Shown here in pieces: positions 2,580 through 6,399 of a DNA stretch of 22,875 bases. Origin of the DNA: a virus. Taxonomy: Duplodnaviria > Heunggongvirae > Uroviricota > Caudoviricetes. The number at the start of each line of letters is the position of its first letter. The stretch's first letter is position 1. Location of the stretch: positions 1-22,875 of the IMG/VR virus record IMGVR_UViG_2651869748_000003; one strand, 5' to 3'. A program made the translations under genes and the position numbers. The notes beneath the pieces were generated by a model. It was not told the DNA's origin. It was given only the letters and a program-made list of their open reading frames with translations, and did not search any database.

Positions 2580-2886
2580 AAACCGGCCAAGGATAATCCG
2601 CTGAAGATTCGCCGGTGGCTAAAGTGTGCCAAGAGTTCAATTTACGCAATTACTCCAGTCGATGCTATGCACCGTCTTTGTGAAGTCAATGGATACCTGA
2701 TTTATTTCTGTGCGCTGTATCGTCGCTGTACTCTTGCATTAATTATGACTGTAGCCTGACGGGGAACTCCTTCTGCACAAGTGTGGGGGAATAATCAAAA
2801 ACGATGCACACCGGGGTTACCGGGTACACATATTTCATCATGCCAGCGAGTCCGGTTCTGGCACGGAAGAAACCGGACGTTATGAT

Positions 2887-3297
2887 TTAGTGCGGAAATA
2901 TTTGTGTAGTGTTCTGAATGTTCTCAGTAAAGAGTAATGAATTATCAAAGGTATAGTAATACCTTTTGTTTTCGTGGATATTTGTAATCCATCTGAAAAC
3001 CCCTGCTGTAGCAAGATTTTTCCTGTATTCGTAAAATGATAACTCTCCTGATTTGAATCCTTTTAAGGTGGCTTCTATAAGGCATTTATTTTTTGAAAAT
3101 CTTACATTTACAACCTTACCCTGTCCTTTTATTAAAACCGTATTATCGTTTTCAAGAACAAGATGAATATTCTCTGTGGCTAAATAGTAAATGTAATGTG
3201 AGACATTGTGACGTTTTAGTTCAGAATAAAACCAGTGATAGTTTAAATTATTTCGCACTTTATCGAATATTTGTTTAAAAATGGCAACCTGAGCCAT
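2887..3297 (-). CDS. DUF1398-like protein (lambda right-end ORF / E. coli YbcV-YdfO family), about 136 aa
   Basis: Minus-strand ORF in the AT-rich segment. Start chosen at the second Met (MAQVAIFK...) because GGAAGG lies 7 nt upstream; the track start at 3312 has no SD. Resembles the lambda right-end ORF and YbcV as recalled. Confidence 0.75.
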
Positions 3298-3354
3298 TGT
3301 AGTACCTTCCATGTGATATGAGGGGGCGTAGTCTGCACGATTATCTAAATTGCT

Positions 3355-3588
3355 TCAATCTGGTCTGACCTGTTTTCTGAGCAATTCAGTAATGTCACTC
3401 TTTTCTTTGTTTGCTTCAGGCGAAACTCTTTTTACTGAGCACAGTCTCCGGCGGCAGGCTTCAATGACCCAGGCTGAGAAATTCCCGGACCCTTTTTGAA
3501 CAAGAGCGATGTTAATTTGTTCAATCATCTGGTTTGGAAATCGGATGTTGCGGGTTGTTGTTCTGCGGGTTCTGTTCTTTGATGACAT
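3355..3588 (-). CDS. Small ribbon-helix-helix-like protein (YlcI/YnfO, DUF3950-like; lambda right-end ORF homolog), 77 aa
   Basis: GGGGA is 6 nt upstream of ATG 3588 on the minus strand. Arg/Thr-rich N-terminus, then a strand-helix-GxS-helix pattern (NIRFPNQMIEQINIALVQKGSGNFSAWVIEACRRRL). Same position and orientation as the lambda right-end ORF as recalled. Confidence 0.75.
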   Translation of the reverse strand: MSSKNRTRRTTTRNIRFPNQMIEQINIALVQKGSGNFSAWVIEACRRRLCSVKRVSPEANKEKSDITELLRKQVRPD

Positions 3589-3794
3589 AATGTTTCCCCA
3601 TATTCAGTGTTGCTGATTTGTATTATCTGAAGTTGCTTTTACGTTAATTTGACGCAGATCAATCAATACGATACCTGCGTCATAATTGATTATTTCTCGT
3701 GGTTTGATGGCGTACACACATGTTGTGATAAACCTTATATAGATGATAATCATTATCATTTCGTGGGTCCTTTCCGGCGATCCGGGCCGTTACG

Positions 3795-3806
3795 GGGCGG
3801 CGACCT
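3795..3806 (+). other. cosN (cohesive-end site), GGGCGGCGACCT
   Basis: The 12-mer and its flanks (TTACG upstream, CGCGGGTTTTCGCTATTTATGAAAATTTTCCGG downstream) match the lambda genome ends as I recall them. Lies about 185 bp upstream of the small terminase gene, as in lambda. Confidence 0.85.
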
Positions 3807-3843
3807 CGCGGGTTTTCGCTATTTATGAAAATTTTCCGGGATC

Positions 3844-3942
3844 CATGTCCGGTTTCTCTTCAAGTTAACTATATGAAAAATATAAAAACAGGTCTTCTGT
3901 GAACCGGACATGAACAAAAAACAGACATGTAAACCGGACATG
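3844..3942 (+). other. cosB-like region: three copies of an 11-bp element (AACCGGACATG at 3902-3912 and 3932-3942; inverted CATGTCCGGTT at 3844-3854) flanking an A-tract-rich segment
   Basis: Repeats seen directly. The arrangement (one inverted copy, AT-rich bendable spacer, two direct copies 30 bp apart) parallels lambda R3-I1-R2-R1, but the repeat sequence differs from the lambda R elements as recalled. Confidence 0.6.
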
Positions 3943-3989
3943 ACCGGTTTTGTTGTGATTGTGAGGTGAGAGTTTTTGCGAGGTGAGGA

Positions 3990-4499
3990 GTGGCTACGCA
4001 GACTGAAGTTGCCAGGCATTTAAGTCTGACCGATCGCCAGCTTCGCAGATTGCAGAAATTGCCGGGTGCCCCGATATCGAATAAGCGAGGGCAACTGGAT
4101 CTGGATGCCTGGCGCGATTTTTACATATCGTATCTGAGGAGAAGTAAAAACGATGTGCCTGATGGCGATAGCGAAGACGACTATGAGGAGAAATTGCTTA
4201 TTGCCAGATGGGAACTGACAGCAGAACAGGCTGTTACACAGCAGTTAAAAAATGAGGTGTCAAAAGGAAAACTTATTGACACCGGGTTCTGTATTTTTGC
4301 CCTCAGTAAGCTGGCAATGGCGTTATCCAGTACGCTTGATTCCATCCCTTTATCCATGCAGCGACAGTTTCCTGATTTAACACCGCGCCATCTTGACCAT
4401 CTGAAAACCCTTATTGCGAAGGGGGCAAATCAGTGTGCGCGGGCAGGGGATAAATTACCGGATTTACTCGATGAATATATCAGAGCAACAACTGAATAA
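3990..4499 (+). CDS. nu1: Terminase small subunit (Nu1-like; lambda-like C-terminal half, diverged N-terminal DNA-binding domain)
   Basis: GTG start at 3990. The C-terminal half aligns with lambda Nu1 as recalled (FCIFALSKLA...LPLSMQRQFPDL..RH.D.LK); the N-terminal approx. 40 aa (ATQTEVARHLSLTDRQLRRLQK) is HTH-like but diverged. 3' end overlaps the large subunit gene by 29 nt, as in lambda. Confidence 0.85.
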   Translation: MATQTEVARHLSLTDRQLRRLQKLPGAPISNKRGQLDLDAWRDFYISYLRRSKNDVPDGDSEDDYEEKLLIARWELTAEQAVTQQLKNEVSKGKLIDTGFCIFALSKLAMALSSTLDSIPLSMQRQFPDLTPRHLDHLKTLIAKGANQCARAGDKLPDLLDEYIRATTE

Positions 4500-6399
4500 T
4501 ATGGTGGCCGCCGTTTCGGTTGCGCTGCAGCCTCTGGTCAGGGTTGTACCGATGACGGCAGTTGAATGGGCTGACCAGTATTATTATCTGCCGAAAGAAT
4601 CCTCATACGGTGACGGCGAATGGAAAACGCTGCCGTTCCAGATCGCCATCATGAACAGTATGGGGAATGATCAGATCCGCACTGTTAATCTGATTAAATC
4701 TGCCCGTGTTGGCTATACAAAGATGTTGCTGGGAGTCGCCGGGTATTTTATTGAGCATAAATCCCGAAACAGTCTGCTTTTTCAGCCCACGGATTCTGCC
4801 GCTGAAGATTTTATGAAGTCTCACGTGGAGGCGACGATTCGGGACGTGCCATGCCTGAAAGATCTTTCCCCGTGGCTGGGTCGTAAACATCGTGACAATA
4901 CTCTCACGCTGAAACGCTTTTCATCGGGGGTGGGCTTCTGGTGCCTGGGTGGTGCGGCAGCAAAAAACTACCGTGAAAAATCCGTGGACGTGGTCTGCTA
5001 TGACGAACTTTCCTCGTTCGAGCCGGATGTCGAAAAAGAGGGCTCGCCAACCCTGCTGGGGGATAAGCGTATTGAGGGCTCGGTATGGCCAAAATCCATT
5101 CGCGGCTCGACGCCTAAAATAAAAGGCTCCTGCCAGATCGAAAAAGCGGCCAACGAGTCGGCGCATTTCATGCGTTTTTATGTGTCCTGCCCGCACTGTG
5201 GGGAGGCGCAGTATCTGAAATTTGGCGATGAGTCCACGCCTTTTGGCCTTAAATGGGAGAAGGACAGCCCCGAAAGCGTTTTCTACCTCTGTGAACATCA
5301 TGGCTGCGTGATCCATCAGTCTGAGCTTGACCAGAGCAACGGGCGGTGGATCTGCGAAAACACGGGCATGTGGACCCGCGACGGTCTGACGTTTTTCAGC
5401 GCCGCGGATAATGAAATTCCGCCGCCGCGCTCCATCACATTTCATATCTGGACGGCGTACAGTCCGTTCACCACCTGGGTACAGATTGTCTATGACTGGC
5501 TGGATGCACTGAAAGATCCCAACGGCCTGAAAACCTTTGTGAACACCACGCTGGGCGAGACCTGGGAAGAGGCCGTGGGCGAAAAACTCGATCACCAGGT
5601 GCTGATGGATAAGGTGGTGCGTTACACGGCGACGGTGCCTGCCCGGGTGGTTTATCTGACGGCGGGCATTGACTCGCAGCGAAACCGTTTTGAGATGTAT
5701 GTCTGGGGATGGGCTCCGGGAGAGGAAGCCTTTCTGGTGGATAAAATCATCATTATGGGGCGTCCTGATGAGGAAGAGACGCTGTTACGTGTGGATGCGG
5801 CGATCAACAAAAAATACCGCCATGCGGATGGCACCGAAATGACTATTTCCCGTGTCTGCTGGGACACCGGGGGGATCGATGGTGAAATTGTTTATCAGAG
5901 ATCAAAAAAACACGGTGTTTTCCGGGTGCTGCCGGTAAAAGGCGCATCTGTCTATGGCAAGCCGGTGATCACCATGCCAAAAACCCGCAATCAGCGGGGC
6001 GTGTATCTGTGTGAAGTGGGAACGGACACCGCAAAAGAAATTCTCTATGCCCGTATGAAAGCCGATCCCTCGCCTGCGGATGAAGCCACGTCGTATGCCA
6101 TCCGTTTTCCTGATGATCCGGAGATTTTTTCGCAGACAGAGGCGCAGCAACTGGTGGCGGAAGAGCTGGTGGAGAAGTGGGAAAAAGGAAAGATGCGTCT
6201 GCTGTGGGATAACAAAAAGCGGCGTAACGAAGCGCTGGACTGCCTGGTGTATGCCTACGCGGCATTACGTGTGTCCGTGCAACGCTGGCAGCTTGATCTG
6301 GCTGTACTGGCAAAATCCCGGGAAGAAGAGACGACCCGGCCAACCCTGAAAGAACTGGCAGCGAAGCTGTCCGGAGGAGTGAATGGTTACAGTCGCTGA
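4471..6399 (+). CDS. A: Terminase large subunit (lambda gpA homolog), 642 aa
   Basis: Collinear similarity to lambda gpA as recalled (TAVEWAD..YYLPKES, KSARVGY.KMLLGV, WCLGGAAAKNYREKSVDV, GDKRIEGSVWPKSIRGSTPK). Start set at ATG 4471 (MNISEQQ...), matching the lambda Nu1/A overlap; the track's upstream start at 4414 is unlikely. Confidence 0.95.
   Translation: MNISEQQLNNMVAAVSVALQPLVRVVPMTAVEWADQYYYLPKESSYGDGEWKTLPFQIAIMNSMGNDQIRTVNLIKSARVGYTKMLLGVAGYFIEHKSRNSLLFQPTDSAAEDFMKSHVEATIRDVPCLKDLSPWLGRKHRDNTLTLKRFSSGVGFWCLGGAAAKNYREKSVDVVCYDELSSFEPDVEKEGSPTLLGDKRIEGSVWPKSIRGSTPKIKGSCQIEKAANESAHFMRFYVSCPHCGEAQYLKFGDESTPFGLKWEKDSPESVFYLCEHHGCVIHQSELDQSNGRWICENTGMWTRDGLTFFSAADNEIPPPRSITFHIWTAYSPFTTWVQIVYDWLDALKDPNGLKTFVNTTLGETWEEAVGEKLDHQVLMDKVVRYTATVPARVVYLTAGIDSQRNRFEMYVWGWAPGEEAFLVDKIIIMGRPDEEETLLRVDAAINKKYRHADGTEMTISRVCWDTGGIDGEIVYQRSKKHGVFRVLPVKGASVYGKPVITMPKTRNQRGVYLCEVGTDTAKEILYARMKADPSPADEATSYAIRFPDDPEIFSQTEAQQLVAEELVEKWEKGKMRLLWDNKKRRNEALDCLVYAYAALRVSVQRWQLDLAVLAKSREEETTRPTLKELAAKLSGGVNGYSR

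What the first reader, a model, noticed from the sequence alone, without database searches (positions are those of the whole stretch)
3795..3960. cos site with lambda-type cosN but a different set of cosB repeats
The 12-nt cohesive-end sequence and flanks match lambda as recalled, but the region between cosN and the small terminase gene has three copies of AACCGGACATG (one inverted, an A-tract-rich spacer, then two direct copies 30 bp apart) instead of the lambda R elements. The layout mimics lambda R3-I1-R2-R1, which suggests changed packaging specificity with the cutting site retained.
Basis: partly seen in the sequence, partly recalled or inferred. Interest (0 to 1): 0.5.

Follow-up and report, generated by a model that had tools for sequence, protein, structure and literature searches.

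The report
Lambda-type cos site, different terminase-binding repeats
This is the DNA-packaging start site of a lambda-like E. coli prophage. It keeps lambda's cutting site but uses its own binding repeats, matched to a divergent small terminase subunit. It is a common, previously unannotated packaging-specificity class rather than a new kind of system.

Summary
Window 3789-3839 is 100% identical to lambda across cosN (3795-3806). After that, lambda's R elements are replaced by three exact copies of AACCGGACATG: 3844-3854 (minus strand), 3902-3912 and 3932-3942 (plus strand).

- The first two copies sit where lambda and phage 21 have R3 and R2, in the same orientations.
- An IHF-like element lies between them at lambda's I1 position.
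- In 14 diverged relatives the spacer is exactly 47 bp. The proximal and distal repeats change together within each phage. One recognition-helix residue of the small terminase (Arg20 versus any other residue) tracks one base of the repeat (G versus T) in 26 of 26 loci.
- The small terminase has a Nu1-like C-terminal part and a divergent N-terminal winged helix-turn-helix domain.

The repeat core CATGTCCG lies between lambda's CGTTTCCG and phage 21's CATGTCGG.

This is not rare. The same cosB and terS occur in 1149 of 5426 complete E. coli genomes. That includes O157 Sakai prophages Sp4 and Sp14, whose cos and Nu1 were already aligned in 2009 without any analysis of cosB.

Verdict: a further specificity class of a known system. 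Binding and specificity remain untested.

The parts
3765..3771 (+). cosQ heptamer GGGTCCT
   Evidence: It is identical to lambda and at the same distance from cosN. It is conserved in nearly all relatives. The same element is labelled cosQ for Sakai Sp4/Sp14 in PMC2669165 Fig S8.
3795..3806 (+). cosN: the 12-nt cohesive-end sequence GGGCGGCGACCT, the inferred nicking site of TerL
   Evidence: It is identical to lambda, phage 21 and phi80. That it gives a 5' overhang in virions is inferred, not tested.
3817..3839 (+). Conserved cosN-to-R3 spacer CGCTATTTATGAAAATTTTCCGG (lambda bp 23-45, the I2/IHF-labelled element)
   Evidence: It is identical to lambda. It is recognisable even in GC-rich distant relatives. 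It is labelled IHF in PMC2669165 Fig S8. The similarity to lambda ends exactly at 3839/3840.
3844..3854 (-). Proximal repeat (R3 equivalent): AACCGGACATG on the minus strand, CATGTCCGGTT on the plus strand, at cos bp 50-60
   Evidence: Exact copy. It is invariant in 36 alleles. A xxxxTCCGGTT site sits at the same distance from cosQ in 26 diverged loci. It overlaps the bp 55-63 stretch that lambda TerS contacts in R3 (PMC9026076).
3866..3878 (-). I1-like IHF element: TTTCATATAGTTA on the minus strand, 2 mismatches to WATCAANNNNTTR
   Evidence: It has the same strand and position as lambda I1 (AAACATTAAGTTA, also 2 mismatches) and phage 21 I1. In 12 of 14 relatives a 0-2-mismatch match sits at the same offset, including perfect matches such as AATCAATTGGTTA.
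3902..3912 (+). First distal repeat (R2 equivalent), inverted relative to the proximal one, at cos bp 108-118
   Evidence: Exact copy. It is separated from the proximal site by exactly 47 bp in all 14 complex-type relatives. Phage 21 R2 lies at bp 107-122 in the same orientation.
3932..3942 (+). Second distal repeat (accessory, R1-like position), direct with the R2 equivalent and 30 bp downstream
   Evidence: Exact copy. It is present in some relatives only, at +88 to +102 from the proximal site. AGCCGGACATG is a common allele.
3939..3949 (-). Overlapping 10/11 inverted copy: CATGACCGGTT on the plus strand, giving a near-palindrome at 3931-3950
   Evidence: It is variable or absent in some alleles, so it is probably dispensable.
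3990..4499 (+). terS: small terminase subunit, 169 aa, GTG start
4471..6399 (+). terL: large terminase subunit (gpA family)
   Evidence: Pfam GpA_ATPase and GpA_nuclease both match. It is 66% identical to lambda gpA over 639 aa.

Best explanation
Window 3765-3950 is the cos site of a lambda-like prophage with inferred 12-nt 5' cohesive ends.

The cutting module is of the lambda type: cosQ, cosN and a gpA-type large terminase. The recognition module, cosB, is a separate specificity class.

Proposed mechanism:
- The N-terminal winged helix-turn-helix domain of the phage's own small terminase (3990-4499) binds CATGTCCGGTT-type sites.
- A TerS dimer holds the proximal site (R3 equivalent, 3844-3854) and the inverted site 47 bp downstream (R2 equivalent, 3902-3912).
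- These two sites are brought together by an IHF-induced bend at 3866-3878.
- This anchors TerL over cosN for nicking.
- The third copy (3932-3942, with its overlapping partial inverted copy) is an accessory site, as R1 is in lambda.

Basis of each step. Shown here: the sequence features, their positions, their conservation and their covariation. Inferred by analogy with lambda and phage 21: TerS binding, IHF bending, the cut positions, and non-interchangeability with lambda and phage 21.
For: 1. Identity to lambda through cosQ, cosN and bp 45, then an abrupt switch.

2. Three exact 11-mers in 100 bp; 1 of 20,000 shuffles reaches this.

3. The positions and orientations match the annotated R3 (50-65), I1 (74-86) and R2 (107-122) of phage 21 and of lambda.

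4. Close relatives (36 alleles from 81 loci):
- the proximal site is invariant;
- site columns vary in 2 of 33 cases against 26 of 81 for other columns (p=0.003);
- single-base indels in the spacers rule out a protein-coding explanation.

5. Diverged relatives from Salmonella, Klebsiella, Citrobacter, Enterobacter and IMG/VR contigs:
- the spacer is always 47 bp;
- an IHF consensus lies at a fixed offset in 12 of 14;
- proximal and distal sites change in concert (ACATG, AAATG or AAGTG types).

6. TerS residue 20 is Arg in all 8 distinct loci whose site reads TGTCCGG. It is Asp, Asn, Ser, Thr or Lys in all 18 loci whose site reads TTCCGG. One GC-rich Arg lineage (L120) is clearly separate from the enteric ones.

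7. The TerS N-terminus folds as the TerS/Rpp-type winged HTH. The C-terminus is Nu1-like and TerL is gpA-like.

8. Function in vivo:
- viable phages PhiR12_1 to PhiR12_5 carry the same cosB and terS at 97% identity;
- Sakai Sp4, which has the same cos, is found packaged in particles (PMC2669165).

9. A satellite-like island carries a copy of this cosB with the same 60/30 start-to-start spacing and no terS.
Against: - There is no direct binding, end-mapping or packaging-specificity experiment for this cos.
- Sequence methods do not link the N-terminal domain to lambda Nu1. A profile search of PDB sequences finds nothing, and hhalign gives only 36% probability. The fold evidence is moderate (pLDDT 76; Foldseek E-values near 1).
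- The third exact copy has R2 orientation, not R1 orientation. The R1-oriented partial copy is not conserved.
- The window's IHF element has 2 mismatches to the consensus, as does lambda's own I1.
- The covariation counts are not phylogenetically independent. Only two or three switches are clearly separate.
- Two of the repeats fall inside terminator-like hairpins.
Confidence: 0.8

Rival explanations
1. The architecture is as described, but the specificity is not new. The sites are functionally phage-21-type R sites, and phage 21 terminase and this terminase would package each other's DNA.
For: The repeat core CATGTCCGG differs from phage 21's R1/R2 core CATGTCGG by one inserted or changed base. 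R3 and R2 positions and orientations coincide within 3 bp.
Against: The exact phage 21 core is absent from the region. The TerS N-terminal domain shows no BLAST similarity to phage 21 gp1, where only residues 64-166 align. Its recognition helix (DRQLRRLQK) is unlike phage 21's (PRTIERWQS). In the lambda/21 system a difference at two base pairs (56 and 59) already gives more than 1000-fold discrimination (PMC4669245). This site has the phage 21 base at one of those positions and the lambda base at the other.
Confidence: 0.08
2. The repeats are bound by a protein other than the phage's TerS. Candidates are a satellite-encoded redirecting protein of the Rpp type or a host or phage regulator. The cognate TerS would then recognise something else.
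For: PICI cos sites keep lambda-like cosQ and cosN but carry a different R3 that is read by Rpp-TerS complexes (PMC6739421 and PMC9026076). The best structural match of the TerS N-terminal domain is RppC itself. A satellite-like island carries the same repeats.
Against: The window encodes a complete lambda-like head and tail module with terS directly downstream, and no rpp-like gene at about +100. The sites covary with a residue of the adjacent TerS helix across 26 loci. Relatives with a simple cosB have the site within 20-30 bp of the terS start and no other candidate gene nearby.
Confidence: 0.05
3. The repeats exist because they form RNA or DNA hairpins, for example terminators or attenuators of the late transcript entering terS. 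They are not protein-binding sites.
For: The consensus scan flags 3836-3852 and 3931-3950 as stem-loops followed by T-rich tails.
Against: Neither hairpin is conserved. Relatives keep the sites but lose the complementary partner, for example CAGAGATCGATGTCCGG in L011, and alleles lacking the 3943-3949 arm. The site at 3902-3912 is in no hairpin. There is no Rfam match. The fixed 47-bp spacing with an IHF consensus is not explained by hairpins.
Confidence: 0.04
4. The repeats are a chance or relic feature of a defective prophage and have no present function.
For: Many E. coli lambdoid prophages are defective (PMC2669165).
Against: The shuffle test gives about 5e-5. The sites are conserved and change in concert across genera. 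Viable PhiR12 phages carry the same module. The reading frames of terS, terL and the structural genes are intact in the window.
Confidence: 0.03

Closest known systems
Phage lambda cos (cosQ-cosN-cosB with R3-I1-R2-R1; TerS gpNu1, TerL gpA)
   Same: cosQ, cosN and the first 45 bp are identical. R3, I1 and R2 equivalents are at the same positions (within 2 bp) and in the same orientations. terS and terL lie directly downstream. The TerS C-terminal part is 46% identical and TerL 66% identical.
   Different: The R-site sequence is CATGTCCGGTT rather than CGTTTCC(G/T)TTCT. The TerS N-terminal DNA-binding domain is not recognisably similar in sequence, and Pfam Nu1 positions 1-61 are unmatched. The third exact site is in R2 orientation, not R1 orientation.
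Phage 21 cosB (R3 AATCGTGTCGGTACTT, R2/R1 TTTCATGTCGG(A/G)CCTT; TerS gp1)
   Same: It is the closest R-site sequence, sharing CATGTC..GG. cosN is identical. R3 and R2 are centred about 59-60 bp apart in both. I1 is at the same place.
   Different: There is one extra or changed base in the core (CATGTCCGG against CATGTCGG) and the flanks differ. The TerS DNA-binding domain is of a different subfamily.
Sakai prophages Sp4/Sp14 'putative cos' and Nu1 (Asadulghani et al. 2009, PMC2669165 Fig S8)
   Same: This is the same element. The TerS N-terminal sequence matches (MATQTEVARHLSLTDRQLRRLQK...), allowing for machine-reading errors in the held text. The cos sequence matches up to ...TTTTCCGGGATCCATGT. 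Sp4 DNA was found packaged.
   Different: That paper labels only cosQ, cosN and an IHF site. Its alignment stops where cosB begins, so the repeats, their layout and the specificity question are not treated.
N15 / Monarch cosB (simple R3-only and complex forms of one specificity; Feiss et al., PMC4669245)
   Same: The present TerS family also has two architectures. Enteric phages have the complex form (R3-I1-R2, with or without R1). Many distant relatives have a simple R3-only form with terS starting 20-30 bp later.
   Different: The N15 R3 sequence (GAGGTTGTTGT) and TerS helix are unrelated to this one.
Gifsy-1 cosB
   Same: It has a tripartite layout with R2 inverted. Its cohesive-end variant GGGCGGCAGCGT also occurs joined to the present cosB type in a Salmonella prophage (L012).
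   Different: The Gifsy-1 R sites are AGATCC(G/T)TTC, and its TerS belongs to the lambda/21 subfamily.
PICI cos sites read by Rpp-TerS (EcCICFT073; PMC6739421, PMC9026076)
   Same: cosQ and cosN are lambda-like, with a non-lambda sequence at the R3 position.
   Different: PICIs have only an R3 equivalent, followed by rpp at about +100, and no structural genes. Here there is a full cosB followed by terS, terL and a complete head and tail module.

Membership tests
Lambda-like cos site (12-nt 5' cohesive ends; cosQ-cosN-cosB) | cosN with a 12-nt cohesive-end sequence closely matching lambda's | tested here: met
   GGGCGGCGACCT at 3795-3806 is identical to lambda, phage 21 and phi80, and the flanks are identical over 3789-3839.
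Lambda-like cos site (12-nt 5' cohesive ends; cosQ-cosN-cosB) | The 7-bp cosQ (GGGTCCT) upstream of cosN | tested here: met
   It lies at 3765-3771 with the same spacing as in lambda. It is described as highly conserved in PMC4669245.
Lambda-like cos site (12-nt 5' cohesive ends; cosQ-cosN-cosB) | A TerS-binding R3 site about 48-65 bp from the left end | tested here: met
   The repeat lies at cos bp 50-60. A site is held at the same distance from cosQ in 26 loci. Binding itself is not testable here.
Lambda-like cos site (12-nt 5' cohesive ends; cosQ-cosN-cosB) | IHF site I1 between R3 and R2 | tested here: met
   TTTCATATAGTTA lies at 3866-3878 (minus strand) with 2 mismatches, as in lambda's I1. 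It has the same strand and offset as 0-2-mismatch sites in 12 of 14 relatives. This is consensus-level evidence only.
Lambda-like cos site (12-nt 5' cohesive ends; cosQ-cosN-cosB) | R2 inverted relative to R3 | tested here: met
   3902-3912 is the exact reverse complement of 3844-3854. The spacer is 47 bp in all 14 complex-type relatives.
Lambda-like cos site (12-nt 5' cohesive ends; cosQ-cosN-cosB) | R1 in the same orientation as R3 | tested here: inconclusive
   The third exact copy (3932-3942) has R2 orientation. Only an overlapping 10/11 copy (3939-3949) has R3 orientation, and it varies among alleles.
Lambda-like cos site (12-nt 5' cohesive ends; cosQ-cosN-cosB) | Virion DNA carries 12-nt 5' overhangs produced at cosN | not testable with these tools
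   No virion-end data are available. The PhiR12 records are not cos-ended.
Lambda-like cos site (12-nt 5' cohesive ends; cosQ-cosN-cosB) | Nu1-family TerS and gpA-family TerL genes directly downstream | tested here: met
   PF07471 matches TerS residues 49-150. PF05876 and PF20454 match TerL, which is 66% identical to lambda gpA.
Lambda packaging specificity (cosB-lambda / gpNu1) | R sites with the CGTTTCC core and a lambda-type recognition helix | tested here: not met
   There is no CGTTTCC or GGAAACG in 3795-3989. The TerS N-terminus gives no BLAST match to lambda Nu1.
Phage 21 packaging specificity (cosB-21 / gp1) | R sites with the C(A/G)TGTCGG core and a phage-21-type recognition helix | tested here: not met
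   The exact core is absent and the best match is 8 of 11 bases. gp1 aligns only from residue 64 onward.
Winged helix-turn-helix TerS DNA-binding domain (gpNu1/Rpp type, MerR-like) | An N-terminal domain of about 55-65 residues with helix-turn-helix, wing, then helix | tested here: met
Rpp-dependent PICI cos | Only an R3 equivalent, an rpp gene about 100 bp downstream, and no phage structural genes | tested here: not met
   The cosB is tripartite, and terS, terL and the full head and tail genes follow it. Family features are taken from PMC9026076.

The most novel reading that the evidence does not exclude
This TerS subfamily (MATQxEVAxHL...) with its TCCGGTT-core sites is a fifth, mutually exclusive packaging specificity of lambda-like cos phages, alongside the lambda, phage 21, N15/Monarch and Gifsy-1 types.

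It would be the dominant one in the E. coli prophage pool, including EHEC strains, where up to five copies share one genome. It would therefore define which defective prophages and satellites can be cross-packaged.

Its natural Arg20-to-G versus non-Arg-to-T covariation would give a readable one-residue, one-base specificity code for small-terminase recognition.
Probability: 0.5. Interest if true: 0.5.

Novelty: new member of a known kind. Interest (0 to 1): 0.35.

Why it matters
Packaging specificity decides which DNA molecules in a polylysogenic cell end up in phage heads. This cosB and terS type is present in about one in five complete E. coli genomes, often in several copies per genome. 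It occurs in EHEC O157, O26 and O145 strains.

Prophages that share it can package each other's DNA. This was inferred for Sakai Sp4 and Sp14 (PMC2669165). At least one satellite-like island has copied it.

Annotating the sites would allow three things:
- prediction of cross-packaging groups among prophages that carry virulence genes;
- design of cosmid and transduction tools orthogonal to lambda and phage 21;
- use of a natural series of matched TerS-helix and site variants to study how small terminases read DNA, a question that for lambda has had to be approached genetically because in vitro binding is weak (PMC6739421).

It does not change the known mechanism.

Tried and rejected
- The half-match AAACAGACATG (3919-3929) was considered as a fourth site. 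It was rejected because it is not conserved even in 97%-identical relatives.
- The minus-strand ORF 3819-4019 was considered as an explanation. PhiR12_1 annotates a hypothetical protein there. It was rejected because alleles carry 1-nt, 17-nt and 30-nt indels in it.
- The hairpin or terminator reading was rejected.
- A first population alignment gave no signal because indel alleles scrambled it. It was redone on equal-length alleles.
- A genome-contig scan with the single protein gave only 4 loci.
- The first viral-contig scan returned 80 near-identical loci, which were useful only for the population footprint. Re-querying with a diverged first sequence gave the diverse set.
- A profile search of PDB sequences found nothing relevant. 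Profile-profile comparison to the lambda/21 DNA-binding domain was weak.
- Literature searches for the repeat sequence and for the PhiR12 accessions found nothing relevant. Subscription-only papers, such as the Feiss laboratory's 2015 Virology papers, could not be searched.
- The published lambda/21 contact assignments (residues 20 and 24 with bp 59 and 56) could not be mapped cleanly onto the covarying residue here. It aligns with lambda residue 21. I therefore do not claim the same contact geometry.

Full report
**1. What is in the sequence**

The 12-nt lambda cohesive-end sequence GGGCGGCGACCT lies at 3795-3806. Aligned with lambda (the DE3 prophage copy, where cos is contiguous), the window is 100% identical over 3789-3839. 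That is lambda -6 to +45. The cosQ heptamer GGGTCCT lies at 3765-3771 with lambda's spacing. From 3840 onward the two sequences diverge.

The 11-mer AACCGGACATG occurs exactly three times in the whole 22.9-kb window:
- 3844-3854 on the minus strand;
- 3902-3912 on the plus strand;
- 3932-3942 on the plus strand.

A 10/11 copy at 3939-3949 (minus strand) overlaps the third copy. Together they form a near-palindrome at 3931-3950. Only 1 of 20,000 dinucleotide-preserving shuffles of 3795-3989 gave any 11-mer three times. The lambda R core (CGTTTCC) and the phage 21 R core (C[A/G]TGTCGG) are both absent.

**2. The genes around it**

- Downstream lies a 169-aa ORF (3990-4499, GTG start). It matches Pfam Phage_Nu1 only over residues 49-150, which is profile positions 62-163.
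- BLASTP aligns only residues 73-164 to lambda Nu1 (46% identity) and residues 64-166 to phage 21 gp1 (40%). The first 60 or so residues match neither.
- The next gene (4471-6399) is a gpA-family large terminase, 66% identical to lambda gpA over its full length.
- The rest of the window is a lambda-like lysis, head and tail module.

The element is therefore a phage, not a satellite. Its cutting enzyme is lambda-like, while the DNA-recognition end of TerS is different.

**3. Comparison with annotated cosB sites**

The phage 21 record annotates the following:
- R3 at bp 50-65, AATCGTGTCGGTACTT;
- I1 at bp 74-86;
- R2 at bp 107-122, inverted, TTTCATGTCGGACCTT on the other strand;
- R1 at bp 150-166, TTTCATGTCGGGCCTTG.

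Counted from the cohesive end, the window's features fall as follows:
- sites at bp 50-60, 108-118, 138-148 and 145-155;
- TAACTATATGAAA at bp 72-84, against lambda's TAACTTAATGTTT at bp 74-86.

The first two sites therefore have the positions and orientations of R3 and R2.

The octamers at the aligned position are:
- lambda, CGTTTCCG;
- phage 21, CGTGTCGG in R3 and CATGTCGG in R2 and R1;
- this phage, CATGTCCG.

At the two base pairs that set lambda/21 discrimination, bp 56 and bp 59 (PMC4669245), this site carries the phage 21 base at the first and the lambda base at the second. The sites are thus diverged homologues of R sites and are closest to phage 21. Gifsy-1 (AGATCC[G/T]TTC) and N15 (GAGGTTGTTGT) are different again.

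**4. Population footprint**

The same cosB and terS occur in 1149 of 5426 complete E. coli genomes at 80% coverage or more, with up to 5 copies per genome. These include O157:H7 EDL933 (3 places), O26 strain 11368 and O145. In the phage collection only PhiR12_1 to PhiR12_5 carry them.

Among 81 IMG/VR and other loci whose TerS is about 99% identical, there are 36 alleles of the region:
- the proximal site is invariant;
- the two distal sites are nearly invariant, with AGCCGGACATG a common variant of the third;
- the spacers vary freely and carry single-base indels.

On equal-length alleles, 2 of 33 site columns vary against 26 of 81 other columns (Fisher p=0.003). One allele has lost exactly the 30 bp between the two direct copies.

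**5. Diverged relatives**

I recovered TerS relatives 30-81% identical, together with their upstream DNA, from Klebsiella, Salmonella, Citrobacter, Enterobacter and IMG/VR contigs.

Every relative with a recognisable cosQ has an xxxxTCCGGTT site at the R3 position, 73-87 bp from cosQ and mostly 77-80 bp.

In the 14 loci with a complex cosB:
- the first distal site is always inverted and the spacer is always exactly 47 bp;
- an IHF-consensus element (WATCAANNNNTTR, 0-2 mismatches) lies on the minus strand at offset 18 in 12 of the 14, with perfect matches in four;
- the window's element has 2 mismatches, as does lambda's own I1.

Proximal and distal sites change together within each phage:
- CATGTCCGGTT with AACCGGACATG;
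- CACTTCCGGTT with AACCGGAAGTC;
- CATTTCCGGTT with AACCGGAAATG.

Many distant relatives have a simple, N15-like cosB instead. It consists of one site, often TTCCGGTTCCGG, with terS starting 20-30 bp later.

**6. Covariation with TerS**

Residue 20 lies in the predicted recognition helix (window sequence D15-RQLRRLQK-23).
- It is Arg in all 8 distinct loci whose site has G immediately 5' of TCCGG. One of these, L120, is a GC-rich lineage that otherwise groups with non-Arg relatives.
- It is Asp, Asn, Ser, Thr or Lys in all 18 loci that have T at that position.

The counts are not phylogenetically independent. However, by whole-protein identity the window (Arg) is closer to Asp-type relatives (77-81%) than to other Arg-type ones (60-71%). 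So either several switches occurred, or the DNA-binding domain and its sites move together as one module. Both readings tie the sites to this protein.

MAFFT and hhalign both place residue 20 opposite lambda residue 21, next to the published specificity residue 20. I do not claim identical contact geometry.

**7. Fold of the TerS N-terminus**

An AlphaFold2 model (23-sequence alignment, mean pLDDT 76) shows helices at 4-10 and 15-22, a wing, and a helix at 38-54.

- Foldseek finds MerR and RacA DNA-binding domains and 6hn7_B, with TM 0.54-0.62 normalised to the target but weak E-values.
- Sequence-profile searches do not find lambda Nu1 structures.

The winged-HTH assignment is therefore supported at the level of fold only.

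**8. Evidence of function in vivo**

PhiR12 phages that plaque on K-12 and E. coli C carry this module.

Asadulghani et al. 2009 (PMC2669165) aligned the 'putative cos' and Nu1 of Sakai Sp4 and Sp14 with lambda. Allowing for machine-reading errors in the held text, the Nu1 N-terminal sequence is the window's, and the cos matches up to ...GGGATCCATGT, where their alignment stops. They found Sp4 DNA in particles although its nu1 is disrupted by an IS element, and they attributed this to Sp14 terminase. They labelled cosQ, cosN and an IHF site but not cosB.

The Feiss laboratory papers I could read list lambda, 434, phi80, 21, N15, Monarch and Gifsy-1 as the lambda-like cos phages, with lambda, 21 and N15 as tested specificities (PMC4669245). 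None of the papers found mentions this repeat.

**9. Rivals**

- Chance is excluded (see section 1).
- Hairpins or terminators are flagged by a consensus scan, but they are not conserved in relatives, and there is no Rfam match.
- A coding explanation is excluded by the indel alleles.
- Binding by a satellite Rpp-type protein is unlikely. This is a complete phage with terS adjacent and no rpp, and the sites covary with TerS.
- Identity of specificity with phage 21 cannot be excluded without experiment. It is unlikely given the unrelated recognition helix and the sensitivity of the lambda/21 system to single base pairs.

**10. Verdict**

This is a real, functional-looking lambda-type cos. Its cosB is a distinct member of the R3-I1-R2(-R1) family, paired with a divergent TerS DNA-binding domain.

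- The architecture and mechanism are those already known for lambda and phage 21.
- The element itself is very common, and its cosQ, cosN and Nu1 were shown in 2009.
- What appears unannotated in the literature I could search: the identity and layout of its TerS sites, their concerted variation, and the two-architecture structure of the family.
- Novelty: new member of a known kind. Interest: moderate to low.

Noticed in passing
L003 3930-4130 and L151 5133-15900 (E. coli strain 135, NZ_CP080260.1, about 3775132-3785900): An island of about 11 kb next to tRNA-Pro, between yejM and yejO, looks like a phage satellite. It carries an integrase, an HTH regulator, an Icd-like protein, a RepA helicase, SSB, PerC, ProQ, a lambda-gpE-family capsid gene and a gpD-family decoration gene. 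It ends in a cos site with cosN GGGCGTCGACCT and window-type repeats at the same 60/30 start-to-start spacing, plus an AACCGGAAGTG copy. No terS or rpp lies beside the cos site.
   Followed up: partly
L154 3560-4283 (E. coli SYNB1934, NZ_CP080246.1); The capsid, decoration and cos module of that island occurs in 589 of 5426 complete E. coli genomes. In most of them the similarity stops at about cos bp 45, the same cosN/cosB junction at which the window departs from lambda. The common form has an N15-like R3 (GGTGGTGGTTTTGTTGTT) and its own N15-like small terminase gene. cosB, with or without terS, therefore appears to be exchanged as a cassette in satellites too.
   Followed up: partly
L012, L013, L106-L108, L011 (upstream of terS); L152 (Gifsy-1): The cohesive-end sequence and the cosB type assort independently. 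TCCGGTT-type cosB with MATQ-type TerS is found joined to lambda-type (GGGCGGCGACCT), N15-type (GGGCGGCGTCCG), Gifsy-1-type (GGGCGGCAGCGT) and other 12-mers.
   Followed up: partly
window 3902-3942 and 3959-3987; IMG/VR alleles u32 and u13: One natural allele has lost exactly the 30 bp between the two direct repeat copies. Another has lost 17 bp between the two GTGAGGTGAG copies upstream of terS. These look like unequal crossovers at the repeats, the route the Feiss laboratory proposed for deriving simple cosB from complex cosB.
   Followed up: no
window 2846-2883: An inverted repeat, GAGTCCGGTTCT...AGAAACCGGACG, contains the same TCCGGTT/AACCGGA core but with different flanks. It lies just past the stop of the minus-strand DUF1398 gene (2887-3312). 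It is probably a terminator hairpin and unrelated to packaging.
   Followed up: no
lambda bp 41-47 (L153); window 3835-3841: Lambda itself has TCCGGTT at bp 41-47, 13 bp upstream of where this phage has its core. The window reads TCCGGGA at that place. This is probably part of the conserved TTTTCCGG element rather than a site.
   Followed up: no
L001 3077-3199 (PhiR12_1, PV340549.1): The deposited annotation calls a 41-aa hypothetical protein on the minus strand across cosB. Indel alleles of this stretch argue that it is not a gene.
   Followed up: partly
window 2887-3312 and 3355-3588 (minus strand): DUF1398 and DUF3950 genes sit on the opposite strand between the lysis genes and cos, a position where lambda has no such genes. 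They may be morons.
   Followed up: no
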